Below are positions 90-47,122 of a DNA stretch of 64,000 bases, piece after piece. The stretch comes from Heterodontus francisci (lineage: Eukaryota), in the NCBI RefSeq assembly GCF_036365525.1, contig NC_090375.1, positions 31,739,282 through 31,803,281 of the forward strand, read 5' to 3'. Both the position numbers and the translations under genes were made by a program. The notes beneath the pieces were generated by a model, which worked only from the letters and a program-made list of their open reading frames with translations, was not told the DNA's origin and did not search any database. Numbering within the stretch: the first letter of the stretch is position 1; every line of letters starts with the position of its first letter.

Positions 90-497
90 AAAAGACTTGC
101 ATGAATATAGCACCTTTCACAACCTCAGGATTTTCCAAAGTACTTAACAGTCAATGAAGTACTTTCGAAATGCAGGAAACAGAGCAGCCAATTTGCACGC
201 AGCAAGATCCCACAGACAACAACGTCATAATGACTAGATAACCTGTTTTTTAGCGTTATTGGTTGAGGAATAAATGTGGGCCAGGACACCAGAGAGAACT
301 CTCCTGCTCTTCTTCAAATACTGCCACGGAATCTGTTATGACCTGAGAGGGCAGACAGGGCCTCGGTTTACTGTCTCATCCAAAAGATGGTACCTCTGAC
401 AGTGCAGCACTGTCACAGTACTGCAGTGGAGTGGTAGCCCAGATTATGTGCTTAACTCCTGCATTGTGGTTTGAATCCACAGCTTTCTGACTGAAAG
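90..497 (-). mobile_element. DeuSINE (SacSINE1/AmnSINE1-like) copy
   Basis: Reverse complement of the Deu-like core (GAAGAAGAGCAGGAGAGTTCTCTCTGGTGTCCTGGCCCACATTTATTCCTCAACCAA); homologous to 38390-38825, 41455-41835 and 11864-12209. Confidence 0.75.
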
Positions 498-944
498 TTA
501 TGTTTTGCGTTGTTTCACATTTACATTTGCATCAATAGCTGTCAGAGGAAATCTTTTCCATGTAATAAAGCCCACTTAGCAATATGTTCCGTTAAGATAC
601 CGGAACGCTGTCCCTTGACTTCTCTCACTGACTAGAATTTATGGATTCCTGCCAGAAAACAGTAAAATTAGGTATCATAGCGAAACAGGATTAAGGGTCA
701 GAAATGACAGTAGGATTTAGAATTATTGTGTACTGGAAATGCTGCTTTTGAGAGCATCATCCCCAGCATTTGTAACAGATCAGGAGAACAGGTCACAGTG
801 AAGATATACCAGTCAAAACAAATCTAAAGCAGGCATGAGTAAGGGTTCTGTCTAATCTTTGGAAGAGAATAACCTCTGAGAATAAAAGTTACCAGAAAAC
901 CTTTCCACTGACTGTTAAGCCGCTAAACAAAAAATGTTTCAAAA

Positions 945-1068
945 ATAAAGTACTGGAAATCGGAATTACAAGCGGAAAGTGCTGGAAGCACTCAGCAGCT
1001 CAGGATGAATGTGTGCGGAGAGGAAGACAGGGTTAACGGTTTAGGTTTCATAACCCTTCATCAGCACC
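945..1068 (-). mobile_element. Degenerate Penelope-like terminal fragment with decayed hammerhead core
   Basis: Similar to the left arm of 10380-10609 and 31155-31385; the minus strand reads CTGATGAAGGGTTATGAAACCTAAACCGTTAAC. Confidence 0.55.
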
Positions 1069-1279
1069 CAAAAAATGTTTCAAGTTACATTTCTGGAAGC
1101 AACCAAGTCATTAAAAGGTCAAATCAAGAAGCTATCTTCACAGTTCAAAACAAAACAAAAACATATCCAGTGACAATATAACCATTATCTAATTTGCACC
1201 CAATGAATGAATTCTCCCTTTTTCTTTGTCTGGAAAGTGGCTGGTAATGGATCAGCTGCCTGTTTTACGTTCCTCCTGA

Positions 1280-1455
1280 TTTTCCCACTGCCTCTCTACC
1301 TCTCTTTCCTCCTTTAAAACCTACCACTTTGACCAAAGTTTTGGTTGTCTGTTCCAATATTTTCATGTGTGTTTCAGTGTCAAATTTTGTTTGATAATGA
1401 TCCTGTGAAGTTCCTTAAGAGATTTTACTCTGTATAAATATAAGTTATTGTTGAT
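1280..1455 (+). mobile_element. Old L2-type LINE 3' tail fragment
   Basis: CCTTTAAAACCTACCACTTTGACCAAAG...CTGTGAAG...TATAAATATAAGTTATTGTTG resembles L2 3' ends. Confidence 0.4.
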
Positions 1456-1995
1456 GTAGTTGTTGAAATTTGGTCAGATGTAAAAAGGGCAGCCAATCCT
1501 TCCGGTTTTTGCATCCAGCAGTAAAAGAGAAAATTCACCTCGATATGACCCAAAACAGATATAAATCCTTTTTGCGTGATTAGGCATCTGCACCACTTTT
1601 CTTCTTTCCTTTCCTGAAGCTGCTGGCTTTTGCCGGAATATGAATTGTATTGGTGCTGACAGCTCTCTGGCACTTCACCTAAGAAGGCATTCTTTCTCTT
1701 TAATCCCCACATAGCCAGCAACTAAAGAGGGCACCAGAGCCAAGTCCAACCATGACCTCACTTCACATTGGCCAATGCCCACTGTTTAGCAGCGGCCATT
1801 GGATAGCATTTAGAAACACAGATGTCTTTTGATTTTCCTCCCTCCACTGCCCAGGATTACAGGAACCATCTGAAATTAGCTGACCATAGACTGATCACGG
1901 ATCAAGATTCAAATTCGGAACTTTCTTGTCCCAGTTCCACATCACGTAACATAGTTCGCTACTAAGACGCTCGGACCAAATTGGAACTCTGGAAT

Positions 1996-2334
1996 TAAAG
2001 GCCTGCTCGGGTCTGCAATTGAAACCTGACCCAAGCCCAACAGAACCACATCCGACCCGAGTCCGACCCGGTCCGAGTTCTTTGATTTTTTTTTCCCGCA
2101 CCCAACCCGACCCGACCACCGGAATGATGTTGATTATATTAAAGAGGTTGTGCTCTATCTTGGATGGAATCGCTCACTGCAGACTAGTGCGAAGTCTGGA
2201 TGCACGTTTCCCGCCTAGAGGTCCTGGCTGTCACTGTGTCCGACTCGGCCCGACCCGACTGGAACCCAGAAGAGCGACCCGACCCAACATGAACCCGACA
2301 CGTTGTCGGGTTCGGGTCGGGTAGCCATGCTGTA
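1996..2334. mobile_element. Non-autonomous hAT-type MITE
   Basis: Perfect 8-bp TSD TCTGGAAT (1988-1995 and 2335-2342), imperfect TA.AG termini, many subterminal CCCGA/TCGGG motifs, CpG-rich relative to flanks. Confidence 0.8.
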
Positions 2335-3194
2335 TCTGGAATGGTTAAAAATCCCCACTGAAAAAGCAATGAGAACTCCTTAGAAGAGAGAGTTAAGAGC
2401 AATTCTAAAATCCTGACTCTTCCTCCTAACCTTCATTTGTGGAGTGATTGATATTGTGGTTTGGAATAAGACTACAGGACACTACATTGTAAACATGGTT
2501 TCACTCCATCAAGCCAACTTGGAGCTGTTGGCAAGATATATCTCTCCATTATTGGTTCCACACGTCTTTATCTACTGTGGTATTGTATGGGGTCCAGAAA
2601 AAGGAACTTCAAAAAACAACAAAGAACTTTCTGGAAACCCACAATAACTATTATAAAATCCTATTACTCATTCCAGTCACGACAGTTTTATCCAGAATTG
2701 TATGGAGGATAACTGTTATGTATTACTCCTTGTTCATAGCAGTGTGCAATATTCATGTTCTTTAAAAATGACTGGGGCAGTGTTTCCTGGAAGTGCTGCT
2801 ATAGCTGATGAGATAATAGGGCTCCAGACACGCATAGAAGAAAATGTCTAACTTTTTGGAACATTTAATAAGAGCAGTGAAAATAAATAGATGTATTTAC
2901 TGCCGAGCTGGCATTTCTCTTCATTCACCCTCAACTGGTGCCAAAATAAATGTCTGCTAGTGTTTAAAGTATTTGTCGGTGCACAGTTCTTGGCCATGAG
3001 AAATATTGCTTCATGCACATCAGTGGCAAATACTTCATCAAGCAGTTTGAGAAAGAAATAAAAACACTTGACCAGTGCTGAAATGTAGTTTAGTACTACC
3101 TCAGCTAATAATATACTGTCGCGTATTCAACTCAGTCAAACAGACAAGATAAGTGCCCTCACTCACCTGTCCTGAGATAGCCACATTTCAACAG

Positions 3195-3369
3195 GGGTCA
3201 TTTTGACTTCAGGTGATGGTTTAAAATAGGTGATATTTTATCAGCCGCAACCTATACATCTCTCCCAATTATTATTTCCATTAACTTTAACAGAAACAAA
3301 AATTCGGAGCGATGCACAACAGTGTCTGATCTGATATCACCAACTTTACACGAACGGTCTAAATTACCC
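3195..3369. mobile_element. Ancient palindromic MITE
   Basis: Termini GGGTCATTTTGAC ... GTCTAAATTACCC; similar ends at about 9083-9372, 30690-30765, 53863-53912 and 58818. Confidence 0.45.
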
Positions 3370-3744: not shown

Positions 3745-4043
3745 TTCATTCATTCACGGGATGTGGGTGTCGCTGGCCAGGCCAGCATTTATTATCCATC
3801 CCTAATTGGCCTTGAAAAGGTGGTGGTGAGCTGCATTCTTGAACCGCTGCAGTCCATGTGGAGTAGGGACACTCACAGTGCTGTTAGGAAGGGAGTTCCA
3901 GGGTTTTGACCCAGTGATAGTGAAGGAACGGTGATATAGTTCCAAGTTAGGATGGTGTGTGGCTTGGAGGGGAACTTGCAGGTGGTGGTGTTCCCATACA
4001 TTTGCTGCCCTGGTCCTTATAGTTGGTGGAGGTCGCGGGTTTG
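3745..4043 (-). mobile_element. CR1-group LINE 'family B' 3' end, left part (split by the CR1 at 4044-8094)
   Basis: Matches 21555-21850 and 61720-62015; continues colinearly at 8095. Confidence 0.85.
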
Positions 4044-4333
4044 TTTTGTTTGCATTGGAGTGCTGACTTGGGTTGCATTAGAGCGTTAAAGTGTAGGTTT
4101 GGTGACTGAGGAAGTTCGGTGAGGAGGGAGCGAGGAGCTCCTTTCATTTCATACCTGTCCTCAGAGTGAGGGGAGCTGAGAGCTTCCAAAGAGCACAGCT
4201 GACTGGTGAGTAAGTCCTGGTGGGTATTTTTCAAAGTGGATTGAATTGGAAGTCATTGTTTTAGCAAGACTTAGTTGATTTATTTTTTTTATTATAATAG
4301 TCTTCTAAAGTTTTAAATTTAAAGGGTTTAGTC

Positions 4334-5249
4334 ATGGCAGGAGAGCTTGAAGCCGTGGTTTGCTCCTCTTGCTGAATGTGAGAATCCGGGAACATTTCCA
4401 GTCCCCGGGACCAGCATGTGTACAGGAAGTGTGTCCAGCTGCAGCTCCTGGAAGCTCGGGTTTCACAGCTGGAACGGCGGCTGGAAACACTGTGGAGCAT
4501 CCGTGAGTCTGAGAGCATTGTGGATAGCACGTATAGAGAGCTGGTCACACCGCAGCTGAAGGGACTTGAGGAAGGAAGGGAATGGGTGACCACCAGGCAG
4601 TCCAAGAGAATCAGGCAGGTAGTTCAGGAGTCCCCTGGAGTCCTGCTTGCAAATTCCATTTTGGAGGCTGATGAGGCTGGATCCTCCAGGGAGTGGCACC
4701 GCAAGCAGCCTGTCTGCACAGGAAGGGGGAAAGAGAGGAAGTGCAATAGTAATAGGGGATTCTATGGTTAGGGGAACAGATAGGCGCTACAGTGGCCGTC
4801 AACGTGACTCCAGGATGGTGTGTTGCTTCCCTGGTGCCAGGGTCCGGGATGTCATTGAACGGCTGCAGGGCATCCTGAAGGGGGAGGGTGATGAGGCAGA
4901 GGTCATGGTACATGTTGGTACCAGTGATATAGGTAGAAAGCGTGATGAGGTCTTGCATCAAGAATTCAGGGAGTTAGGCAGTAGACTAAAAAGCAGGACC
5001 TCTCGGGTTGTAATCTCTGGATTACTCCCAGTGCCACGTGCTAGCGAGTACAGAAATAGGAGAATAGCACAGATGAATGTGTGGCTTAAGAGTTGGTGCA
5101 AGAGGGAGGGTTTTAGATTCCTGGACCACTGGGACCGTTTCTGGGGAAAGTGGCACCTGTACAAGTGGGACAGTCTACATCTGAACCAGAGGGGGCCTAA
5201 CATCCTGGCTGGCGGATTTGCTAGTGCTGTTGGGAGGAGTTTAAACTAA
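4334..5249 (+). pseudogene. CR1 ORF1p: N-terminal Cys/zinc-finger region, coiled coil and SGNH esterase domain
   Basis: MAGELEAVVCSSC*..., QLLEARVSQLERRLETL; SGNH blocks GDSMVRG, PGARVRDV, HVGTSD, DSLHLN; in-frame stops and a frameshift near 4650. Confidence 0.9.
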
Positions 5250-10379: not shown

Positions 10380-10609
10380 CTCAAAATACAAGAAATGCTG
10401 GAATCACTCAGCAGGTCTGGCAGCATCTGTGGAAAGAGAAGCAGAGTTAACGTTTCGGGTCAGTGACCCTTCTTCGGACCCGAAACGTTAACTCTGCTTC
10501 TCTTTCCACAGATGCTGCCAGACCTGCTGAGTGATTCCAGCATTTCTTGTTTTTGTTTCAGATTTCCAGCATCTGCAGTATTTTGCTTTTACTCAAAATA
10601 CAAGAAATG
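10380..10609. mobile_element. Palindromic Penelope-like short element with hammerhead-type core
   Basis: About 75-bp perfect inverted arms around 10462-10476; flanking 18-bp direct repeat CTCAAAATACAAGAAATG (10380-10397, 10592-10609); minus strand 10452-10477 reads CCGAAGA-A-GGGTC-ACT-GACCC-GAAAC. Confidence 0.75.
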
Positions 10610-10956
10610 GACTTGCATTAGCCAGTACAGAAATTATCTTTAGATTGAAAAAGTAACATTCATGCCTTATATGGAAGAAATAGCCTTCACCCTACATCAG
10701 CTTTGTACATTCAGTCGTGCCTGATGTCAGTTTAAAAATGTCTGCTAAAAGTATGGACATTTCATTTTTAGGTACATTTATGGCTCCCAGTAAGATAATT
10801 AAATATTTGCACATGGATCGCAAGTCAGAAATATCTGTGCTCATTTTTGTCATGCATCGTAGGATATGTTGGAAAGGTAATGACTTACACAAAAATGCAC
10901 TAAAAAGCAAACAGGATGTGAAGGTAGGAAAAAAACTTGTGCATTTGTATTTAAGG

Positions 10957-12209: not shown

Positions 12210-15191
12210 GGGCTGGATGTAACGTTCACGTCGCGGCTTCTGGTGGCGGACCCGGAAGTAGGCACTGTCGCTGCTCATCACATGTGCGGCTGGCCCACCA
12301 TAATCACACAGTGGGTGGCCAATTTTCATAATGGAGGCCAATTACGTGACAGGAGTGGGATTTGAGGTGCCGAATATGATTCTGCAGCAGGTTCTGGTGC
12401 CATATTTAAAGCCCTGCCAGCCCTGCTTTCATTGCTGCCTTAGACTCATTGGTTATTTGCTGCTGAGACTGGTGCTGGAGCGACTCCTGGAACCACCACC
12501 ACTCTGTCAAGGAAACTGCAGTATGGTTCAGGCATGACACTAGTTGGCCCCACGGTTTAGCGATATCTCCCTGGAGATTCTCCTCCAGGCTGCAAGGGAA
12601 AGGCAGGAAGTCATCTTCCCGAGCGATGGCAAAAAGAGGTCCTCCCACCTGACCAAGTAAGATGGAGATCGCAGAGGAGGTAAGCGGCCGTGATGTCACA
12701 GCCCTCCTCTGAACATGGGTCCAGTGCAGGAAGAGAGTCAATGACCTTGTTCTGTCTGCCAAAGTGAGTGCTACATACCACTCTCTCCTTTGTGGCTTGC
12801 GTGTGGCTTCATGAGGGGCAGCGCAACATGGGGAGGGAGGTACCACAAAGGCATTGGCAAAGGGGGTTAAGCATCACCACATCCTGCCAGATGTATGGTG
12901 GTATCTCAGGCGCAGGCCACCCTTTGTCACAGATCACCCCCATTACCACCCCTCCTCACAGACTGGTGGAGGAATTGCAGACACACTGCCTCGCTCAGCA
13001 GCTGAGAATGAAGCACTGGAGTTGACAGGGACCCAGAATGGCCACTCAATAGCAGATTATGGGACTGGAGTCTCTGCGCAAGAGAGTGAGGATAGTCTTC
13101 AATTGACATTCAAACACACTTCTGGAGATTCACATCACACATGGATTACATGATAAGATCTGCACAGCCTAACCCACACCTGTTTGTGTTCTCTAATGCA
13201 GGTCGATGCCCGCTGGAGACTCCATCAGAAGGGGGACAGCCATCAACCTCTGAGGATGAGCAGTCAGAGGCTACACCATCCCATGACTCTCCTGCATCTT
13301 CCACCAGCGCAGATACTTTCACCTTGGTGGGTTTGCGCTTGGCAGTAGAATCAGTGTCACAAACTGGTCACAGCATCACACACATCTGAGCAGCTGACTG
13401 AGGCTGAGACAGCCGAGGTCTCTGACAGTCGGAGGACTGTGGCAGGCCAGGCCCATGCTGAGCCCCAGGCTGATGACGCGCCTCTGGTGTTGACAGCGCA
13501 GGGCATGCTGGAATTGTGCAGAGAGGTAAGGCAACATCTGGTGGAGATGCCGGAGGCCATGCGCAGCCTTGAGTGGACGATGGAGGAGTCCATTCATGCC
13601 ATGACTGCTGACATGTCTCAGGCACATGAGGCATGGCTTCCTCCATCGAGAGGTTGGCGACACTCATCGAGAGACAAATCCCACAAATGCACGCAGACCT
13701 GCACATCATCGCAGAGTGGTCATCGTCCGCTCATGGCTGCGCATGGCCTCCGGCATCTCCGCCAGATGTTGCCTTACCCCTCTGCGCAATTCCAGCATGC
13801 CCTGCGCTGTCAACACCAGAGGCTCATCATCAGACCTCTTCTTGCCATCGCACCTGGAGTCTTCTCCAATTCCTCATCCTTCACTGATAAGCAGGGAGGT
13901 TCAAGTGGGCCTTGAAAAGGAGGAGGAGTGACTGACCTCCACAGCTGGAGGCTCCCCTCAGGGTGCTCTGAATGTGGACAACAATTCCTCAGCCCTTCCG
14001 TCAGTGAGCCCAGTGCAGGAAACCCTCAGGCAGCCAGGGCCCTCCAGGCCTCATGCAGCCAGAGGACACCAGCTGAAGTTATACTAGGCTAAGAGGCAGC
14101 CTGATCAGCAGCCTGCCTCCAGTCCAGCACAGGGGTCACACATCAACAATGAAGAAAACCACTTGGAAACACTTGGGGTTTCACAGGTGTTTAAAATTTA
14201 CCTTTTATTTCCTGTTATAAAGTTTTTTTGCTTTTGAAGTTAGCATTCATTGTGGAAAATGCTAATTTCTTCATGCCTTAATTGTGAGCTGCTGACTTGA
14301 CCCTTCTCCCATCGTGGGCTGACAGTGTAGGCACAGCCCTCCTTTGGTAAGTGCATCTGATGTGCCAGACTGCGTCGTTAAGCTGGACTCTGGGCACAAA
14401 CCCAAATTGAAAGGAAGCGACAGACTGAATGGTTTTAGGTAATTTTGTATTGCTTTCACTCTGAGAGGCAAGCATGGTGGCTGGAAGTGGGTAAATATGA
14501 GACTGTCTCTTGCCTCCTGTGCCTCCCTCTGTCGGAGTTGCTGCATCACGCCACGGGGCTCCATAAAGACAGGGTGTATGAGACGCATGCCAGGTGATCA
14601 GTAGGCCTCAAGAGCACTGTCCTTGCAGAAACAAAGTCCCCTGGCACCTTTGCCTTTGCTACTGCCCTCGGCTTATGTGCTGATAGCCCTCAGTGCTCAT
14701 GCTTGCTGATAGCCAACCCTCTCATCCAGCAGTATGGTCATCGAACCTGTGCCGACCACCCGAGACCAAGCCCATCTGTGCAGACTTCACAGCACTGCAG
14801 GCCGATATGGCCTCTGCTCACCCCTCTTCTCCTATCCAGTGCTGAATATGTCTGCTTTCCTGTCACGGCACTGAGGCCTTGCTTCGGTTCTGCCATCTTT
14901 CAACAGTGGGGGATCCGAAGGCTGGTGAGGACCGCTCGTCATCAACTTAATTCCAAGTCCCCCATTGAATCACTTTCAATTAAATACAAATGTATTAATA
15001 CTAACTGTTCTACAATTCAAATGGCAGTCACGTCATGTCGGGGTGGCAATGCTGCCTTGGAGCTTTCCCGGCACCGACTAAATCCGGAACCAACATCACA
15101 TCATCAGATTTCTGGGTGGACGCATCCATTGCAATTCTCCGGCCCTCCATTCATCCATTCCCGCTCCAAACTGCCTCACTAAGACTAGCTC
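12210..15191. mobile_element. PIF/Harbinger transposon, transposase-deleted derivative
   Basis: 3-bp TSD AGT (12207-12209, 15192-15194), GGGCTGGAT terminus, colinear in inverse orientation with 46011-50653. Confidence 0.85.
12523..14150 (+). pseudogene. Harbinger Myb/SANT-like DNA-binding protein gene (spliced, decayed)
   Basis: APRFSDISLEILLQAARERQEVIFP...MEIAEEVS...TWVQCRKRVNDL followed by a GTGAGT donor at 12764; acceptor TAATGCAG near 13201; stop codons; 3' end approximate. Confidence 0.75.
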
Positions 15192-19889: not shown

Positions 19890-20255
19890 TTTGTGCTTTT
19901 GGCTAGGGCTATTCATTATTCTGTCATTTAACACCCTCTCTGCACTAACACTTTGTCTTTCACCATATCATTAGTACACTGTCTTTGCCTTTGCCCCATG
20001 ACCTACTTGTCAGTTAATCTCTCTGGCCCTCTGTCCTATCAACATCTTCCCTTTTGTTCTCTTTTCCCCACCCACACTTTATTTGCTTAAAACCTATTAC
20101 ATTTCTAATCTTTGCCAGTTCCAATGAAAGGTCACTGATCTGAAACGTTAACTCTGCTTCTCTCGCCACAGATGCTGCCAGACTTGTTGAGTATTTCCAT
20201 CACTTTCTGTTTTTATTTCAGATTTCCAGCATCCGCAGTATTTTGCTTTTATTTT
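19890..20255 (+). mobile_element. Penelope-like 3'/pseudo-LTR fragment with decayed hammerhead
   Basis: AGTT-CCAATGA-A-AGGTC-ACT-GATCT-GAAAC-GTT-AACT at 20117-20153, followed by the same right arm and tail as 10480-10590. Confidence 0.65.
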
Positions 20256-21439
20256 ATTATTCCTTTTTAAACAGTGGATGTGCTTACCACCTCTTGAGTT
20301 CCATGATTTTGGTGGTCATAAGTGGTACATTAGCACAGCCCATTGGTCCTATAATATGCTGCACCACAAGCTTGCTAAGTTATGGGTGTATCCCCTGTGT
20401 TGAGTTCCCAAGTTCAACCCGCCTGTTGCCTGTATCAAGATTGCTAGCCAAGAAAGATAAAGAAAAGCTCGAAGACAATTCAGGCTGAACAGTGGAAGAG
20501 GCCAGCGAGCTGACTGGGAATAGATTGCCGAGCCTGGTCAGATCTAAACAAGGGAAAGAAATAAAAGTTGTCCAAAGAAACACAAAAGTAACTCACAGAA
20601 AATGTCACCAGTCAATCAGCCTTCTCAGATGAAGGAACCATTCTGACCTTGTTCTTAAAATATCAGGAGAGCTGAATTAAAGAAGTGCCATTCTTCTTTC
20701 AGAGGTATTATACAAAGTGGGCTTGTCTGAAAAGCAGAGCTTTTACCTTTGCATCTTCCTATTCAATTTATGGCTAGCACACAGGAAATGGCAATCAGGG
20801 GCTGTGCTTTTACTCCCAGCATCAGCATAGATTGCTCAGGAAAAATTCAGCCTTATCTATTAGTAAAATATTCACCAATAAATACAAGATATCTCATTTC
20901 CCCTTATTTTCCTTCATAAAATATTTTAAGAGATTTTGTTATTGAAAAGAGTTTGCTACAAGTACCTGACCTTGAGAAAATGCTCAATGAGCTGAATCTG
21001 TAAAGCAAACATTAATTTTATGAAGTCTTCTCCCCCACCCCCCCCCCCATTCATGGATGGAGTGGGGCCCTTTTCTGTGTTGAATATTTGAGCATCTTAG
21101 TCTGTCCTCCTACATATAACTATCAGTGCCGTTCCCAAACAGGTCTTTTATGTGAACTTAGCGTTTTACCTGTATTCTGGGACACTCTTTTGTTGTTTGT
21201 ACAGTTAGTTTGGTCTGCTAGGAGCTTTTATTGTCCGTTAAAGTGTAGTGGGGGTGGGAAGGAATTGGTATCACTTATAATATGAAATTGCCTCAAATTT
21301 CAGATTTTTAAAAAAACAAACCTGCTATGTGCAGTCAAAGAAAAGAAAATGGTCCTTTACAGTGCCACCATTCAGCAAGTTTTATAGAGGTGACTCAAGT
21401 AATAAATGACATAGATTAAGACAAAGGGGAAGAGGAAAC

Positions 21440-21530
21440 ATTCACTCTGTTGCTTTCTCCACAGATGCTGAGTATTTTCTGCATTTTCTGTTTTTATTTC
21501 AGATTCCACGTATCTGTAGTATTTTGCTTT
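21440..21530 (+). mobile_element. Penelope-like tail fragment
   Basis: CTCCACAGATGCTG...TTTCAGATTCC...GTATTTTGCTTT. Confidence 0.55.
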
Positions 21531-26354: not shown

Positions 26355-28850
26355 ATAGCTGGGAAGTGGAAGTTGGGTGGGGGGGTAGTGGTGGCTGGGA
26401 GGGGTTAGTGGTGATTGAGAGGAGGGGCAGTGGTTGCGGGGGGGTGCAGTGGTAGCTGGGAGGGGGTCAGTGGTGGCTGGGAGGGGGTCAGTGGTGGCTG
26501 GGAGGGGGTCAGTGGTGGCTGGGAGGGGGGGAAGTGGAGGCTGGGAGGGGGGGAAGTGGAGGCTGGGAGGGGGGGAAGTGGAGGCTGGGAGGGGGGGAAG
26601 TGGAGGCTGGGAGGGGGGGAAGTGGTGGCTGGGAGGGGGGGAAGTGGTGGCTGGGAGGGGGGGAAGTGGTGACTGGGAGGGGGGAAGTGGTGGCTGGGAG
26701 GGGGGAAGTGGTGGCTGGGAGGGGGTGCAGTGGTGGCTGGGAGGGGGTGCAGTGGTGGCTGGGAGGGGGTGCAGTGGTGGCTGGGAGGGGATGCAGTGGT
26801 GGCTGGGAGGGGATGCAGTGGTGGCTGGGAGGGGATGCAGTGGTGGCTGGGAGGGGGTGCAGTGGTGGCTGGGAGGGGGTGCAGTGGTGGCTGGGAGGGG
26901 GTGCAGTGGTGGCTGGCAGGGGGTGCAGTGGTGGCTGGGAGGGGGTGCAGTGGTGGCTGGGAGGGGTGACAGTGGTGGCTGGGAGGGGTGACAGTGGTGG
27001 CTGGGAGGGGTGACAGTGGTGGCTGGGAGGGGGGACAGTGGTGGCTGGGAGGGGGGACAGTGGTGGCTGGGAGGGGAGGAAGTGGTGGCTGGGAGGGGGG
27101 GATGTGGTGACTGGGAGGGGGGGATGTGGTGACTGGGAGGGGGGGATGTGGTGACTGGGATGGGGGGGTCAATGGTGACTGGGAGGGGGGGAAGTGGTGA
27201 CTGGGAGGGGGGGAAGTGGGGGCTGGGAGGGGGGGAAGTGGTGGCTGGGAGGGGGTGAAGTGGTGGCTGGGAGGGGGTCAGTGGTGGCTGGGAGGGGGTC
27301 AGTGGTGGCTGGGAGGGGGTCAGTGGTGGCTGGGAGGGGGGGAAGTGGTGGCTGGGAGGGGGTCAGTGGTGGCTGGGAGGGGGTCAGTGGTGGCTGGGAG
27401 GGGGTCAGTGGTGGCTGGGAGGGGGTCAGTGGTGGCTGGGAGGGTGGGAAGTGGTGGCTGGGAGGGTGGGAAGTGGTGGCTGGGAGGGGGGGAAGTGGTG
27501 GCTGGGAGGGGGGGAAGTGGTGGCTGGGAGGGGGGGAAGTGGTGGCTGGGAGGGGGGGAAGTGGTGGCTGGGAGGGGGGGAAGTGGTGGCTGGGTGGGGG
27601 GGAAGTGGTGGCTGGGAGGGGGGGGAAGTGGTGGCTGGGAGGGGGGGAAGTGGTGGCTGGGAGGGGGGGAAGTGGTGGCTGGGAGGGGGGGAAGTGGTGG
27701 CTGGGAGGGGGGGAAGTGGTGGCTGGGAGGGGGTGCAGTGGTGGCTGGGAGGGGGTGCAGTGGTGGCTGGGAGGGGGGGAAGTGGTGGCTGGGAGGGGGG
27801 GAAGTGGTGGCTGGGAGGGGTGACAGTGGTGGCTGGGAGGGGTGACAGTGGTGGCTGGGAGGGGAGGAAGTGGTAGCTGGGAGGGGAGGAAGTGGTAGCT
27901 GGGAGGGGGGGGAGGAAGTGGTAGCTGGGAGGGGGTGGAGGAAGTGGTAGCTGGGAGGGGGGGGGGAGGAAGTGGTAGCTGGGAGGGGGGGGGGAGGAAG
28001 TGGTAGCTGGGAGGGGGGGGGGGAAGTGGTGACTGGGAGGGGGGGGGAAGTGGTGACTGGGAGGGGGGGAAGTGGGGGCTGGGATGGGGGGTCAATGGTG
28101 ACTGGGAGGGGGGGGAAGTGGTGGCTGGGATGAGGGGAAGTGGTGGCTGGGATGAGGGAAAGTGGTGGCTGGGAGGGGGTCAGTGGTGGCTGGGAGGGGG
28201 TCAGTGGTGGCTGGGAGTGGGGGGAAGTGGTGGCTGGGAGTGGGGGGAAGTGGTGGCTGGGAGTGGGGGGAAGTGGTGGCTGGGAGTGGGGGGAAGTGGT
28301 GGCTGGGAGTGGGGGGAAGTGGTGGCTGGGAGTGGGGGGAAGTGGTGGCTGGGAGTGGGGGGAAGTGGTGGCTGGGAGTGGGGGGAAGTGGTGGCTGGGA
28401 GTGGGGGGAAGTGGTGGCTGGGAGGGGGGGGAAGTGGTGGCTGGGAGGGGGGGAAGTGGTGGCTGGGAGGGGGTCAGTGGTGGCTGGGAGGGGGTCAGTG
28501 GTGGCTGGGAGGGGGTCAGTGGTGGCTGGGAGGGGGTCAGTGGTGGCTGGGTGGGGGGCAGTGGTGGCTGGGAGGGGGGCAGTGGTGGCTGGGAGGGGGG
28601 CAGTGGTGGCTGGGAGGGGGGCAGTGGTGGCTGGGAGGGGGGGCAGTGGTGCTGGGAGGAGGGGCAGTGGTGACTGGGAGAGGGGGCAGTGGTGACTGGG
28701 AGAGGGGGCAGTGGTGGCTGGGAGGGGGACAGTGGTGGCTGGGAGGGGGACAGTGGTGGCTGGGAGGGGGACAGTGGTGGCTGAGAGGGGGTTTATTGGT
28801 GGCTGGGAAGGGGGGAATAACATTAGCGTGGTGGCTGGGAAGTGAGTAAC
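26355..28850. repeat. G-rich minisatellite, unit about 21-25 bp (AGTGGTGGCTGGGAGGGGG[variable])
   Basis: About 100 tandem units with blocks of variants; the Pro- and Gly-rich ORFs are artefacts. Confidence 0.95.
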
Positions 28851-29120: not shown

Positions 29121-31154
29121 AAACCCTGGATTGATGCATTTCTGGAATTACTGTTAAACCTCTGTTGAGGTTATGGCATTTGATGATGCAAACCCCGAAT
29201 TTACCAGCAACAATACTTACTTGAGAACAGAAGAGGGTCCTATCATTGCAGCCCTGGCTTATGGTAACGCATGGATGTATATGGGTGTTATTAGCATATC
29301 CTAAACCGTAAGCCCCTCAGACCACTTACAGCATGACCAGCATCGATCTACCTGAGAGGATATCCAAGCCTAACTTCTAACATCCAAGAAAACTCAGTGC
29401 CCACGAGAGATGGGAGAAAAATCACAAAAAATAAATAAAAGTTGAACTCAACATTTTAATATGTTCAGTACCCACGGAATTTATCACTTGCCTTTGCACA
29501 TCAATATAACTCTCACGTGAAAGAAGTTATTAGGATTTTAGTGTAATCCCTGTAGGATATGATTCTGTGTATGTAGTGAACTTCCCCTGAAGCCCAATAG
29601 GTTTTATTATTTAATAATCTGAAAATATCCCAAGCATTGCAGCCCTGTCGTTCCCTTTGTGTCCTGCACTGTCAGATACTTGTCACAACCTCACAGCTCT
29701 GAATTATTTATTTCCCAATCTTTATGCAGGTCCCTTAGCTGCAAGGATTTTAGCTGTTTGATGTTATATCTCCTCAAGTGACTAAAGACGATACAAACCA
29801 GCCAATGGTTTAACTGTGCTATCCCAGTTCTATTAGTGGCAAAGACCTGCCCATTCAAACTGCTAAGTAAATCCTCTAAGTGCCGAGAGACAATTCAGGC
29901 ATGAAAGCAACTGTTAAAAACTTGACAACATCCAAACTGCTCCCATTTAATCCAGCTCCCAAGGTGCAGAATAATTATAAGTAAACATATGCCTTCATTA
30001 TTTACTTTGCTGATCTCTAATACCCAATCTCTCACACACAAAATAATTGCCAACCAAGGATTAAATGCAATCACTGTTGGATTTTATGCATTTCAAAATA
30101 GAAAAATGTATTCGCTATGGAGATTGTTACATATATTGCCTTTCCTTTCCATTTCTTCACACACAGAATTTCGCTCAACTGAAATTTTGTGTGACATATA
30201 AGCGGAGTGTATAGTAGTTTAAAAAAAAGCAATGACCCTTCTAGAGATTTTCTTAACATATTACCTACAATATTAGCCCGGCTAAATAGAAACACTGGGA
30301 AATACAAGAGCTGCAGGTGTTCCCGTGATCAATGGGAATGCAAACCTAGTCTCGAAAACATGGAGAGGGAGATTTACCCAAAGCTACAGCATCCAATATC
30401 AAATCATCACTTAAAGCTACAGGGTTCCTTTTCCAATATATGTACATACTAATTTCGATCAATTTTCTACATTTATAGTTAATTAATAAGTGATCTTGTT
30501 GATTCAAAAAAAAGATATCCATAAGTCAATTCTTGCAATAGAATTGAAACAACCTTTAGCAGAAAATAGGGGTAATTATGACTTTGGGTGATAGCATAAA
30601 ATGTGCAATATTGGATCAGCTGCCCATAATACATCTCTGGCATTCCCCTCCCCCAACCCCTCACCCAGCAGCACCCCCCACCCCGACTCCCCCGTCACCC
30701 CACTTTTATTTCCACTGATCTGATATTGCTATTTTACAATATTGCCCAATGTCAAAATTACCCCAAATATACTTTTGTTGTAAACAGTGTGATTAGTGTT
30801 ACCTTTTTTTTTTAAGATAGATTGATGGTGCATATCCCAAATCTGATGGTCTATAAAAACGCACCAAACCATCACTGTATGAATTTAAGATTCAAAAACT
30901 TTAAAATAACATTTGACAAATTCATTTGCAGCTCAAAAGGTAGTACACATTGTGAAGGGTCAGTTCTGCTTGTCATTAATTTAGCTATTTACAGCCAATT
31001 AGGTTGATGTAACTGCTTCCAGTCTTGATACCAGTGTAGGATCCCTGCCTATTTCCTGAATCCCTTTTTATCCCCCAGGTAGCAGCACCTTTCATATGCT
31101 TGCTTCAGGTCACACATTGCTGAGGCTGTTTGAAGGCACCACATATTTGTGTTA

Positions 31155-31385
31155 TAAAAACAGAAAGTGCTGGAAATACTCAGCCGGTCTGGCAGTATCT
31201 GTGGAGAGAGAAACAGAGTTAATGTTTCAGGTCTGTGACCTTTCATCAGAACAAGTGATGAAAGGTCACAGACCTGAAACGTCGACTCTGTTTCTCTCTC
31301 CACAGATGCTGCCAGACCTGCTGAGTATTTCCAGCATTTTCTGTTTTTATTTCAGATTTCCAGCATCTGCAGTATTTTGCTTTTA
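31155..31385. mobile_element. Palindromic Penelope-like short element with two inverted hammerhead cores
   Basis: Arms of about 95 bp; minus 31224-31249 CTGATGAAAGGTCACAGACCTGAAAC, plus 31255-31283 GTGATGAAAGGTCACAGACCTGAAACGTC; degenerate flanking repeat CACAT(A)TTTRTGTT. Confidence 0.75.
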
Positions 31386-31659
31386 CACATTTATGTTTAT
31401 TTTTTTCCCGACCTTAGGAAATAGTTTGATGGATGATCCTCAGTGAGGGCTGCATGAGGGTCAGCATACTGACAGCACTTCAAACGTTCTCAATTTCACA
31501 CACCATTCAGCTACTGTTTTCTTGGAAAGGGGTACTCTGGTTAGTCCATTCCTATTTATTGTGCTTTCTTTTTTCTCCTTTTATTTTAAACCAATGTTCT
31601 TCTTACCCTCACCGTTAACTCTACCCTCCACACCACCCCACCATGCCCCCACCCTCCCT

Positions 31660-43547: not shown

Positions 43548-44139
43548 TAGGATCCCCAACTCTTGTTGGCCGTGTTCCGTGAGGTTTCATCACATGCACT
43601 CCCTCCTCCACTGCCCCACCCTCACACTCCTGCTGTAGGCCATCTCACATGTCCATCCTCACAGTGCCCCGCCTTCCCACACCAGTTGGAAAGCAGACGG
43701 ACTCTCCATTAGCCAACTGGATCATTCTTGACAGTCAAATTGTCTTTATTCCCATCTCTATCATTTTTATTACTGGTAGACTACATGTGGCATAGGGGGA
43801 TAACCAATGACATAGGGGGATATGAGGATAGTGTGGGAAAAAAGTGGATGATCAGCCATGAGAATTTTGAATGGTGGGGCAGGCTCGATGGGCTGAATGG
43901 CCTCCTCCTGCTCCTATGTTCCTATGTAAACTAAATTGTTAAAACAAAATGAAATAAAAATCACAACTTATTTCCAACCCCACCATGCAACCACCACCGC
44001 CCCCCCCACCCCCACCTGACCGCCCCCCCCCCCCCCCCCAGCCCCAATGAGTTTTTTCTTGGGTTTCTCCCAGCAGTGTGTAGGAAATTAATCATTAATT
44101 CCTAGAGGGTCCAGGACAATCCTGGAGGTTGGCAGCCTT
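43548..44139. mobile_element. Degenerate TAGGGTTGCCAAC-type (hAT-like) MITE containing a CR1 tail (about 43790-43928)
   Basis: Shares ATTCTTGACAGTCAAA and terminal segments with 51960-52330. Confidence 0.5.
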
Positions 44140-44237
44140 TGATTTCCTCATTTTCCCACTGCTGATCCAAGACATGCTAAGGCCATTAGTAATGCCTCTA
44201 TTGACACTGCTGCACAGATCAGGTACTAACACAGTAC

Positions 44238-45150
44238 ACACAGGACACCAATCCTGACTTGCAGTACCACACTGGACACCAATCCTGACTTGCAGTACCA
44301 CACAGGACACCAATCCTGACTTGCAGTACCACACTGGACACCAATCCTGACTTGCAGTACCACACTGGACACCAATCCTGACTTGCAGTACCACACAGGA
44401 CACCAATCCTGACTTGCAGTACCACACTGGACACCAATCCTGACTTGCAGTACCACACTGGACACCAATCCTGACTTGCAGTACCACACTGGACACCAAT
44501 CCTGACTTGCAGTACCACACTGGACACCAATCCTGACTTGCAGTACCACACTGGACACCAATCCTGACTTGCAGTACCACACTGGACACCAATCCTGACT
44601 TGTAGTACCACACAGGGACACCAATCCTGACTTGTAGTACCACACAGGGACACCAATCCTGACTTGTAGTACCACACAGGGACACCAATCCTGACTTGTA
44701 GTACCACACTGGACACCAATCCTGACTTGCAGTACCACACTGGACACCAATCCTGACTTGCAGTACCACACAGGACACCAATCCTGACTTGCAGTACCAC
44801 ACAGGACACCAATCCTGACTTGCAGTACCACACAGGGACACCAATCCTGACTTGCAGTACCACACAGGGACACCAATCCTGACTTGCAGTACCACACAGG
44901 GACACCAATCCTGACTTGTAGTACCACACAGGGACACCAATCCTGACTTGTAGTACCACACTGGACACCAATCCTGACTTGCAGTACCACACTGGACACC
45001 AATCCTGACTTGCAGTACCACACTGGACACCAATCCTGACTTGCAGTACCACACTGGACACCAATCCTGACTTGCAGTACCACACTGGACACCAATCCTG
45101 ACTTGCAGTACCACACTGGACACCAATCCTGACTTGCAGTACCACACTGG
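44238..45150. repeat. Minisatellite, 31/33/34-bp unit GGACACCAATCCTGACTTGCAGTACCACACT
   Basis: About 28 near-identical tandem units with no spacers. Confidence 0.95.
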
Positions 45151-45779
45151 ATGAACAACACATTTGCCAGTTGAACCATCCGGGAAACAACATTTTTTTC
45201 AAACAAGGATAAAATGCCAAGCAAGGTGCTAAGGAAGGATCAACCCTGATTATGTCTCTATACACCCCACCCTCTCCTTCATACTGTGAAAAACACTTTC
45301 GAAGACACTTCATGCCCCTTCAAATAGAATACTCTTATCACGCACAAAGGTATGTCTATCCTCAAAAATGGTGTATTTGAAAACATCCTGTTTTCACAAA
45401 GATGGTTCTAAATATTGCTTGTGGTTTTTTTTTGCTTTCCATTTACACATTTACTGGGAAATGCAATCACTCTTCTAGTTCTCCGCCAGTGAAATGTTTA
45501 AATATTGACAGAACTCTATTGTTTACCAGTGCAGAAGAGGATGTGCAAGCACAACATCTGTCCTGATAACAGCACCACGTGTGAGTCATATCACATCATT
45601 GTTGTACCAACAAACCTGAACATGTAAGTGTAAATATACTTTACTCTGCACCCAGTTTGAAAATAATTCCTAATGTTGCATTTCAATAGATCAGTCATGC
45701 CACAGTTTCTGCTAATCTAAGACAGGCTTTGTATAAATGCAAACAGTGTATTGTAATTTAGGTGTGCAGTAACAGATCT

Positions 45780-46010: not shown

Positions 46011-46226
46011 TGGCAGAATTTAGTGTGGCTGTTTAGAGCGGGAATGGAAGTGCGAGGCACCGGAGAATCACATCAGAAGCGTCCGCCTGGAAATCCGGCA
46101 TCGTGACATCAGTTCCGGATTTAGTCAGTGACGGGAAAGCACCAAGGCGGCATCACCGCCCCAAAGCGAAGGAAAAATAACTTAAATTGTAGAACACTTA
46201 CTTTTAGTATATTAGCATCAAATCCA

Positions 46227-46900
46227 CTCGGGTGGGAGTGCCGGCTGAGCGGGGCCTCGGGTGGGAGTGCCGGCTGAGCGGGGCCTCGGGTGGGAGTGCC
46301 GGCTGAGCGGGGCCTCGGGTGGGAGTGCCGGCTGAGCGGGGCCTCGGGTGGGAGTGCCGGCTGAGCGGGGCCTCGGGTGGGAGTGCCGGCTGAGCGGGGC
46401 CTCGGGTGGGAGTGCCGGCTGAGCGGGGCCTCGGGTGGGAGTGCCGGCTGAGCGGGGCCTCGGGTGGGAGTGCCGGCTGAGCGGGGCCTCGGGTGGGAGT
46501 GCCGGCTGAGCAGGGTCTCGGGTGGGTGTGCCGGCTGAGCAGAGTCTCGGATGGGTGTGCCGGCTGAGCAGGGTCTCGGATGGGAGTGCTGGCCGAGCAG
46601 GGTCTCCGGTGGGAGTGCCGGCCGAGCAGGGTCTCCGGTGGGAGTGCCGGCCGAGCAGGGTCTCGGGTAGAAGTGCCGGCTGAGCAGAGTCTCGGGTGGG
46701 AGTGCCGGCCGAGCAGGGTCTCGGGTAGAAGTGCCGGCTGAGCAGGGTCTCGGGTGGGAGTGCCGGCTATGCAGGGTCTCGGGTGGGAGTGCCGGCTGAG
46801 CAGGGCCTCGGGTAGAAGTGTCGACTGAGCAGGGTCTCGGGTGGGAGTGCCGGCTGGGCAGGGTCTCGGGTGGGAGTGCCGGCTGGGCAGGGTCTCGGGT
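46227..46900. repeat. 29-bp GC-rich minisatellite inside the Harbinger
   Basis: About 23 units of CTCGGGTGGGAGTGCCGGCTGAGCGGGGC; homogeneous on the left, diverged on the right. Confidence 0.95.
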
Positions 46901-47122
46901 GGTCAGCAATTGGGGCTTGCGTTTGGATGGCTGTAACGGGTGACCAAACTGTTGAGTGAGATGTTTGGCTGCCCATGCTGCTGGATTAGAGAGTCGGCTA
47001 TCAGTAAGGGTGGGCACTGAGAGCCATCAGGGAGTCTGCCAGGAGAAATGGCAAAGGGATAGCTGCCAAGGCAGGGTCGTCTCTGCATTGACAGTACTCT
47101 GGAGGCCCACTGATCACCTGCA

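What the first reader, a model, noticed from the sequence alone, without database searches (positions are those of the whole stretch)
31155..31385. Back-to-back hammerhead ribozyme cores in a palindromic mobile element (best candidate system)
Seen: the minus strand has GTT-CTGATGA-A-AGGTC-ACA-GACCT-GAAAC-ATT-AAC and the plus strand has GTGATGA-A-AGGTC-ACA-GACCT-GAAAC-GTC, so either transcription direction contains a core. Across copies, stem II covaries: AGGTC/GACCT here, GGGTC/GACCC at 10452-10477, and AGGTC/GATCT with a wobble at 20129-20141. Known: CUGANGA-stem II-GAAA-stem III-NUH is the hammerhead consensus, and Penelope-like elements carry minimal versions in their pseudo-LTRs. Inference: five related pieces in 64 kb point to a very abundant ribozyme-bearing non-autonomous retroelement (retrozyme-like) that could also form long dsRNA hairpins. 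Every copy here has at least one core or stem defect, so activity is unproven.
Basis: partly seen in the sequence, partly recalled or inferred. Interest (0 to 1): 0.7.

Follow-up and report, generated by a model that had tools for sequence, protein, structure and literature searches.

The report
Head-to-head stump of Penelope retrotransposon
This small mirror-image DNA element is two back-to-back end fragments of a very abundant Penelope-like jumping gene, likely joined during one insertion; both self-cutting RNA motifs are mutated and predicted to be locked inside the hairpin, and the layout is already described for this class.

Summary
The palindrome and both hammerhead-like cores are real. 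They are the 3' end (pseudo-LTR with a minimal hammerhead) of an autonomous Penelope-like retrotransposon, not a separate retrozyme: longer genomic copies run on into RT, a CX4CxxC linker and a GIY-YIG endonuclease, and one holds an open 916-aa ORF. About 59 insertions per Mb were found in 1.53 Mb sampled. 16 of 90 are head-to-head pairs with different centres, 15 of 16 carry the ~31-nt tail on one arm only, and most sit in target duplications. Each palindrome is therefore an independent insertion of a published shape (PMC3846280, PMC8557442). Here the left core lost G16.2, the right lost C3 and stem I, and stem II has pairing probability 0.0 in the hairpin on both strands. Stem II covariation is one pair between subfamilies. 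Side result: copy 5' ends pile up at the first bases of stem I, in an Initiator-like motif behind a TATA-like box, not at the cut site, so the RNA likely starts there. The scan reported this family, layout and idea before on other DNA of this genome.

The parts
31141..31153 (+). Left copy of a 13-bp target-site duplication (2 mismatches to the right copy)
   Evidence: score 7, reached by 9 of 306 mismatched-flank controls
31154..31252 (-). Left arm: inverted, tail-less 3' end of the Penelope-like element; its 5' end is at the second base of hammerhead stem I
31217..31252 (-). Minimal hammerhead motif of the left arm; core CUGAUGA and stem II intact, G16.2 changed to A (CpG-type change) so the self-complementary ACGU of helix III is lost
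31253..31255 (.). 3-nt non-element spacer at the head-to-head joint; supplies the G that stands where C3 of the right core should be
31256..31385 (+). Right arm: 3' end of the element with tail, truncated at U4 of the core
31256..31287 (+). Truncated hammerhead motif of the right arm; C3 and the 5' strand of stem I missing, A1.1 changed to G
31351..31385 (+). One-sided extension (Penelope 'tail'); in tandem copies it runs on into the 5' region of the ORF
31385..31397 (+). Right copy of the target-site duplication
10384..10591 (.). Second, independent head-to-head insertion of a younger subfamily (C4 core, G-C at 10.1-11.1), with a different centre
   Evidence: 97-98% to the full-length copy L281
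19808..20251 (+). Longer 5'-truncated solo copy: ~310 nt of 3' UTR plus motif (G5 changed to A) plus tail
21435..21530 (+). Decayed solo fragment with a 12-nt deletion
951..1068 (-). Old, ~72-74% identical solo copy

Best explanation
The element is two head-to-head 3'-end fragments of an abundant Neptune-type Penelope-like retrotransposon, likely written into a staggered double nick in one insertion event, and its two hammerhead motifs are mutated passengers predicted to be inactive. Shown: identity of the arms with the end of an RT + GIY-YIG element, the one-sided tail, the flanking duplication, variable centres across copies, and the core mutations. Inferred: the element's endonuclease nicks both target strands about 13 nt apart. 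Each nick primes reverse transcription at one of two fixed internal sites of the element RNA about 31 nt apart, one giving the tailed arm and one the tail-less arm. Both cDNAs end after 100-135 nt, likely because they run off an RNA whose 5' end is the first base of stem I. The two cDNA ends are then joined by repair, here with 3 filler bases. The copy has since decayed neutrally (arms 6% apart). A read-through transcript in either direction would fold into a ~95-bp duplex that leaves no ribozyme.
For: Upstream continuity into a GIY-YIG/RT ORF. Linker CX2-5CxxC followed by the endonuclease CxxC in one frame in 26 of 29 loci. Full-length copy L281 has a 916-aa ORF with DKG, YIDD, CX4CxxC and IGET motifs and a motif-bearing repeat at each end. 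In 9 of 30 loci a full pseudo-LTR plus tail runs straight into the ORF 5' region, i.e. partial tandems. In 153 evenly spaced 10-kb stretches: 106 arms, 90 insertions, 16 head-to-head pairs, 0 tail-to-tail; tail on exactly one arm in 15 of 16 (p 2.6e-4 against 0.5). Flank duplication score >=7 in 14 of 18 pairs against 9 of 306 controls. Arm starts in pairs range from profile position 232 to 487. Near-full-length L062 and L063 show the same inverted, tail-on-one-end layout with arms of ~975 and ~400 nt. The tail sits on the longer arm in some pairs and the shorter in others, which a tail-first fold-back does not predict. Stem II pair probability is 0.0 in the full palindrome against 0.85-0.90 in single arms. 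Literature: same layout (PMC3846280, PMC8557442); both strands cut and extended, two internal RT start sites equal the tail, hammerhead cleavage not needed for insertion (PMC11167929).
Against: No biochemical or raw-read data for this family. Pfam hits were below curated cut-offs (RVT_1 26.2 vs 29.6 bits; GIY-YIG 16.7 and 19.7 vs 22.6). The duplication of this copy has 2 mismatches in 13 and only reaches score 7. Solo short copies show duplications less often (score >=8 in 10 of 47 against 34 of 2162 controls). One of 16 pairs (L073) has tails on both arms and no duplication. Two of the 16 pairs (L216) are duplicates of each other, so independent pairs number 15. PMC11167929 saw no strand difference in RT start site in vitro, so the coupling of the two sites within one event is my inference.
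Confidence: 0.88

Rival explanations
1. A non-autonomous, retrozyme-like palindromic element amplifies as a unit, and its hammerheads process its RNA from either strand.
For: Short 100-135-nt copies dominate and share a fairly fixed 5' end, so they behave like a SINE-length class. About 58,000 exact motif matches exist. A 2026 preprint derives animal retrozymes from PLE pseudo-LTRs (parts 1-2 read).
Against: Centres differ among 16 sampled pairs and among the pairs. Only 1 adjacent same-strand pair among 106 arms. The cores lie on opposite strands, so they cannot dimerise in one RNA and are masked. Copies rarely start at the cut site.
Confidence: 0.04
2. One cDNA is made and its 3' end folds back (for example on the stem I or stem II complementarity) and primes the second arm, so that a single primer makes both arms.
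For: Some joints show microhomology at stem I (L164, AGTT) or stem II. Self-priming is the reading proposed in PMC3846280. Both arms generally look to be of the same subfamily (by eye).
Against: Here the tail-less arm reaches further 5' than the tailed arm, as in L071, L136, L217, L222 and L062; non-element spacers occur (this copy, L002, L024, L029, L217); arms are no more alike than the best copy elsewhere in 14 pairs compared. This rival changes only the joining step, not the identity of the element.
Confidence: 0.2
3. The palindrome has been kept by the host as a dsRNA, small-RNA or silencing signal.
For: It folds into a very stable ~95-bp hairpin; family sequence is abundant in RNA-type contigs.
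Against: The arms differ at 6 of 95 positions, about what two neutrally decaying copies of this subfamily show (mean 6.4% from the group majority); arms in 14 pairs are not homogenised. No locus-specific expression was tested.
Confidence: 0.04

Closest known systems
Inverted, 5'-truncated pseudo-LTR insertions with one-sided tail and TSD in endonuclease-bearing Penelope-like elements (Pen2a_Av, PMC3846280; general scheme in PMC8557442; passages read)
   Same: Head-to-head inverted copy, ~31-35-nt tail on one end only, flanking duplication, high 5' truncation, partial tandems.
   Different: Here no ORF sequence is left between the arms; duplications seen were about 8-16 bp against 8-10 bp in Adineta; roughly 3.5e5 insertions estimated per genome.
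Minimal hammerhead (min-HHR) of metazoan Penelope-like elements (PMC4209133; parts 1-2 of 4 read)
   Same: CUGANGA, one extra base after A9, stem II, GAAAC-GUH with self-complementary 15.2-16.2 and no loop III, short stem I; mostly solo copies of truncated elements.
   Different: Stem II is 5 bp; older subfamilies have A10.1-U11.1 instead of the conserved G-C; the youngest, most numerous subfamily has C at position 4.
Poseidon element PAc of Anolis carolinensis (PMC11167929; parts 1-2 of 4 read)
   Same: Hammerhead at the pseudo-LTR/ORF junction, two 3' end positions defining the tail, few copies beginning at the cut site.
   Different: This element has the CX2-5CxxC linker of Neptune/Nematis; the long ORF starts ~175 nt after stem I rather than in stem II.
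Non-LTR retrozymes (preprint 10.64898/2026.07.22.740005, parts 1-2 of 5 read; PMC7229834, search listing only)
   Same: Non-coding, type I hammerhead-bearing, derived from PLE pseudo-LTRs.
   Different: Retrozymes are head-to-tail tandem repeats with a hammerhead in each unit; this is a head-to-head pair with defective cores.

Membership tests
Endonuclease-bearing Penelope-like element | Single ORF with RT and C-terminal GIY-YIG endonuclease | tested here: met
   916-aa ORF in L281 with DKG, YIDD, IGET; Pfam RVT_1 and GIY-YIG hits, both below curated cut-off
Endonuclease-bearing Penelope-like element | Pseudo-LTRs from partial tandems, direct or inverted | tested here: met
Endonuclease-bearing Penelope-like element | 30-40-bp tail, often at one end only | tested here: met
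   3' ends peak at profile 500-509 (33 of 106) and 530-534 (50 of 106); one tail in 15 of 16 pairs
Endonuclease-bearing Penelope-like element | Target-site duplication | tested here: met
   14 of 18 pairs vs 9 of 306 controls; this copy 13 bp with 2 mismatches
Neptune/Nematis clades | CX2-5CxxC linker between RT and endonuclease | tested here: met
   26 of 29 loci and L281; feature as defined in PMC8557442
Neptune clade proper | RT phylogeny groups with Neptune rather than Nematis | not tested
   No named reference RTs were held; 'Neptune-type' rests on the linker motif
Minimal hammerhead of PLEs (family motif) | Core boxes, extra base after A9, stem II, palindromic 15.2-16.2, stem I | tested here: met
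   18 of 106 sampled arms intact if C4 is allowed, 1 of 106 with strict U4
Minimal hammerhead of PLEs (family motif) | G10.1-C11.1 pair | tested here: inconclusive
   G-C 27, A-U 21, G.U 11, A.C 0, other or gap 4 of 63; this copy's subfamily has A-U
Minimal hammerhead of PLEs (this copy) | Intact core able to fold | tested here: not met
   G16.2A in the left arm; C3 and stem I lost in the right; stem II probability 0.0 in the palindrome
Minimal hammerhead of PLEs (family motif) | Self-cleavage as dimer or with protein | not testable with these tools
   needs an in vitro assay
Non-LTR retrozyme | Head-to-tail tandem units each with a type I hammerhead | tested here: not met
   This locus is head-to-head; 1 adjacent same-strand pair among 106 arms
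Non-LTR retrozyme | Circular RNA intermediates | not testable with these tools
   Only contigs were available

The most novel reading that the evidence does not exclude
The element's RNA starts on the first base of the hammerhead's stem I, under a TATA box and Initiator. Its protein primes from both target strands at two fixed internal sites, so hundreds of thousands of 'solo ribozyme' copies and one-tailed palindromes are run-off (strong-stop-like) cDNAs that can also jump templates to build pseudo-LTRs. The most successful recent subfamily did this with a weakened U4C core, so the ribozyme acts mainly as a 5' structural element rather than a cutter.
Probability: 0.45. Interest if true: 0.4.

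Novelty: new member of a known kind. Interest (0 to 1): 0.17.

Why it matters
The locus itself is an ordinary dead insertion. The family is a large natural record of how Penelope-like elements insert, a mechanism that is still only partly solved. If the RNA starts at stem I and two start sites are paired across the two target strands, that would explain in one model the solo minimal hammerheads, the one-sided tail and the inverted pseudo-LTRs. It can be tested directly by 5' end mapping and the published in vitro assay.

Tried and rejected
Rfam scan: no hammerhead model matched at E<=1; miRNA-family hits were below gathering score and reflect the hairpin. Copies starting at the cut site as a sign of in vivo cleavage: rejected. 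Junction mapping gave 3 of 106 arms at position 433 (one alignment artefact at a deletion, one stem I microhomology, one split by another element) and a cluster at 429-431; 3 of 4 of the latter that I inspected had the 5' half of the motif 0.6-0.9 kb upstream across an inserted inverted-repeat element. Splicing into the AG just before the core as cause of the 5' hotspot: considered, because the upstream tract resembles an acceptor and PMC4209133 places the Drosophila intron end at helix I. Many junctions retain the AG and share no foreign exon, and no GT-AG joint landing there was among the 15 best-supported joints shown for 4 runs (26 more not shown). It is disfavoured, not excluded. RNA evidence: the four runs laid were contigs from related or unnamed organisms (three only guessed to be RNA); depth peaks over the pseudo-LTR but cannot show start, strand or level, so it was not used as support. 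Arm homogenisation: none seen in 14 pairs. I ran 7 paper searches; none listed a paper on this family in this host, but Repbase/Dfam, subscription papers and supplements were not seen, so the family may already be named. Flanking genes of the window were not annotated.

Full report
Observation. The sequence at 31154-31385 is a near-perfect inverted repeat: left arm 31154-31252 on the minus strand, a 3-nt spacer, right arm 31256-31385. The arms match at 93.7% over 95 nt, and the right arm runs 35 nt further. The region folds at -175.6 kcal/mol, z -27.3. Rfam has no matching hammerhead model at E<=1. A 13-bp duplication with 2 mismatches flanks the unit.

What it belongs to. The window lies in a 6.0-Gb genome; earlier scan notes call the host a shark, which I did not test. 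Of 30 loci fetched with the right arm, 9 extend upstream into a pyrimidine-rich 3' UTR by eye, and L004, L006 and L015 extend further into a GIY-YIG coding region. Loci fetched with that region show RT motifs. The CX2-5CxxC linker, which PMC8557442 gives as the mark of the Neptune and Nematis clades (passages), precedes the endonuclease in one frame in 26 of 29 loci. Pfam RVT_1 and GIY-YIG hits were below cut-off. In 9 of 30 loci fetched with the ORF's 5' part, a full pseudo-LTR plus tail continues directly into the ORF. One copy, L281, has an open 916-aa ORF with the motif at both ends. The arms are therefore the 3' end of an autonomous Penelope-like element.

Abundance and layout. I sampled 154 evenly spaced 10-kb stretches, one of them all N, so 1.53 Mb was read. 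After dropping short antisense self-hits of stem II, 106 arms remained, in 90 insertions, or 59 per Mb. That extrapolates to roughly 3.5e5 insertions per genome (standard error about 12%). Exact patterns give 18,469 motifs with U4 and 39,688 with C4, reversed controls 0. Sixteen insertions are head-to-head pairs, none is tail-to-tail, and 1 adjacent same-strand pair was seen. The 3' ends are bimodal, about 31 nt apart, and 15 of 16 pairs have the tail on exactly one arm while 36 of 74 solos have it. Arm starts within pairs range from profile position 232 to 487, with overlaps or spacers. Flank duplications reached score 7 in 14 of 18 pairs (the 16 plus the window's two) against 9 of 306 controls, and score 9 in 9 of 18 against 4 of 306. 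Two pairs are duplicates of each other and two matches lie off the boundary. Solo short copies gave weaker support, 10 of 47 against 34 of 2162 at score 8. Long copies L062 and L063 show the same layout with long arms. The layout is that of Pen2a_Av (PMC3846280, passages) and of the general scheme in PMC8557442.

The ribozyme. The family motif matches the minimal hammerhead of PMC4209133 (parts 1-2 read): extra base after A9, no loop III, self-complementary ACGU. That paper found no cleavage of monomers and low cleavage of dimers. Covariation is confined to pair 10.1-11.1: G-C 27, A-U 21, G.U 11, A.C 0 among 63 sampled arms. Genome-wide with U4, A-U has 5,581 matches and A.C 115. This reflects one or two changes between subfamilies through a G.U state, not many independent events. 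Groups with A-U are older (6-7% from their majority) than the C4/G-C group (3%). U4C lowers activity in vitro but occurs in an infectious viroid (PMC3088659, passage). In this copy the left core has G16.2A; the right has lost C3 and the 5' strand of stem I and has A1.1G. On both strands the antisense arm comes first, and stem II pairing probability drops from 0.85-0.90 to 0.0. The cores are on opposite strands and cannot form the dimer in cis.

Why the centre sits on the ribozyme. Of 69 sampled arms that reach position 405, 30 start in 390-405, against 2.2 expected from the upstream truncation rate. Exact junction mapping placed 22 at 394-405, around the A that opens stem I. Starts at the predicted cut site are rare and mostly explained otherwise. 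In 44 long copies that A lies in a YYANWYY Initiator-like motif in 38, with TATAA about 29 nt upstream in 25 and a TATA-like word in 36. These copies are related by descent and no chance control was run; the consensus motifs are recalled. L281 starts at stem I, and its 3' repeat joins the 3' UTR directly to that same A at a joint with no GT donor, as a run-off cDNA that jumped templates would. A start site within the pseudo-LTR is known for Penelope, where the promoter is described as internal and TATA-less (PMC2377424, passages), and TATA/Inr-like motifs were noted in Pen2a_Av. PMC11167929 (parts 1-2) shows both strands cut and extended, two internal RT start sites that define the tail, and no need for hammerhead cleavage. 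Together these make run-off from two fixed sites on both strands the likeliest route; this step is inferred. RNA contigs could not test it.

Verdict. A real feature, an ordinary product of a known class. I reached this reading before consulting earlier scan notes (note, look-up). Those unchecked notes describe the same family, layout, start-site idea and inserted elements at other loci of this genome, so the scan has seen this before. Supplements and repeat databases were not seen and may already name the family.

Noticed in passing
L128 ~3970-4830, L165 (two sites), L149, L217: Short inverted-repeat elements (termini of the GGGCTG...CAGCCC type) are inserted at the GTTAAC of the hammerhead's cleavage triplet; 3 of 4 inspected had the 5' half of the motif upstream of the insert.
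   Followed up: partly
L281 (reverse) 198-3357: Full-length copy with an open 916-aa ORF and a 10-bp flanking duplication; it starts at stem I, and its 3' repeat skips about 245 nt of UTR and resumes exactly at the A of stem I.
   Followed up: partly
genome-wide patterns: The youngest subfamily has a U4C hammerhead core and outnumbers U4 matches about 2 to 1 (39,688 vs 18,469).
   Followed up: partly
window 31284-31385 and L259 ~945-1085: Downstream of the motif lie three strong splice-acceptor-like tracts and a short open frame starting at an ATG, ahead of the long ORF's ATG in full-length copies. No matching splicing was seen in contigs.
   Followed up: partly
L252-L256, L258, L270, L272: Near-identical (97-99.9%) tandem-context copies of the element, flanks included, on many small unplaced contigs; they may sit in a larger satellite or segmental repeat.
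   Followed up: no
window 10384-10610: The duplicated target of this palindrome resembles the element's own A-rich end over about 15 nt, suggesting homology-assisted priming.
   Followed up: no
window ~26360-28800, ~44100-45200, ~46080-47020: Three minisatellite arrays with 22-, 31- and 29-bp periods; the first is extremely G-rich.
   Followed up: no
window 13470-13833: Another inverted repeat, 113-nt arms at 94% with a 138-nt loop, not hit by the searches for this family.
   Followed up: no
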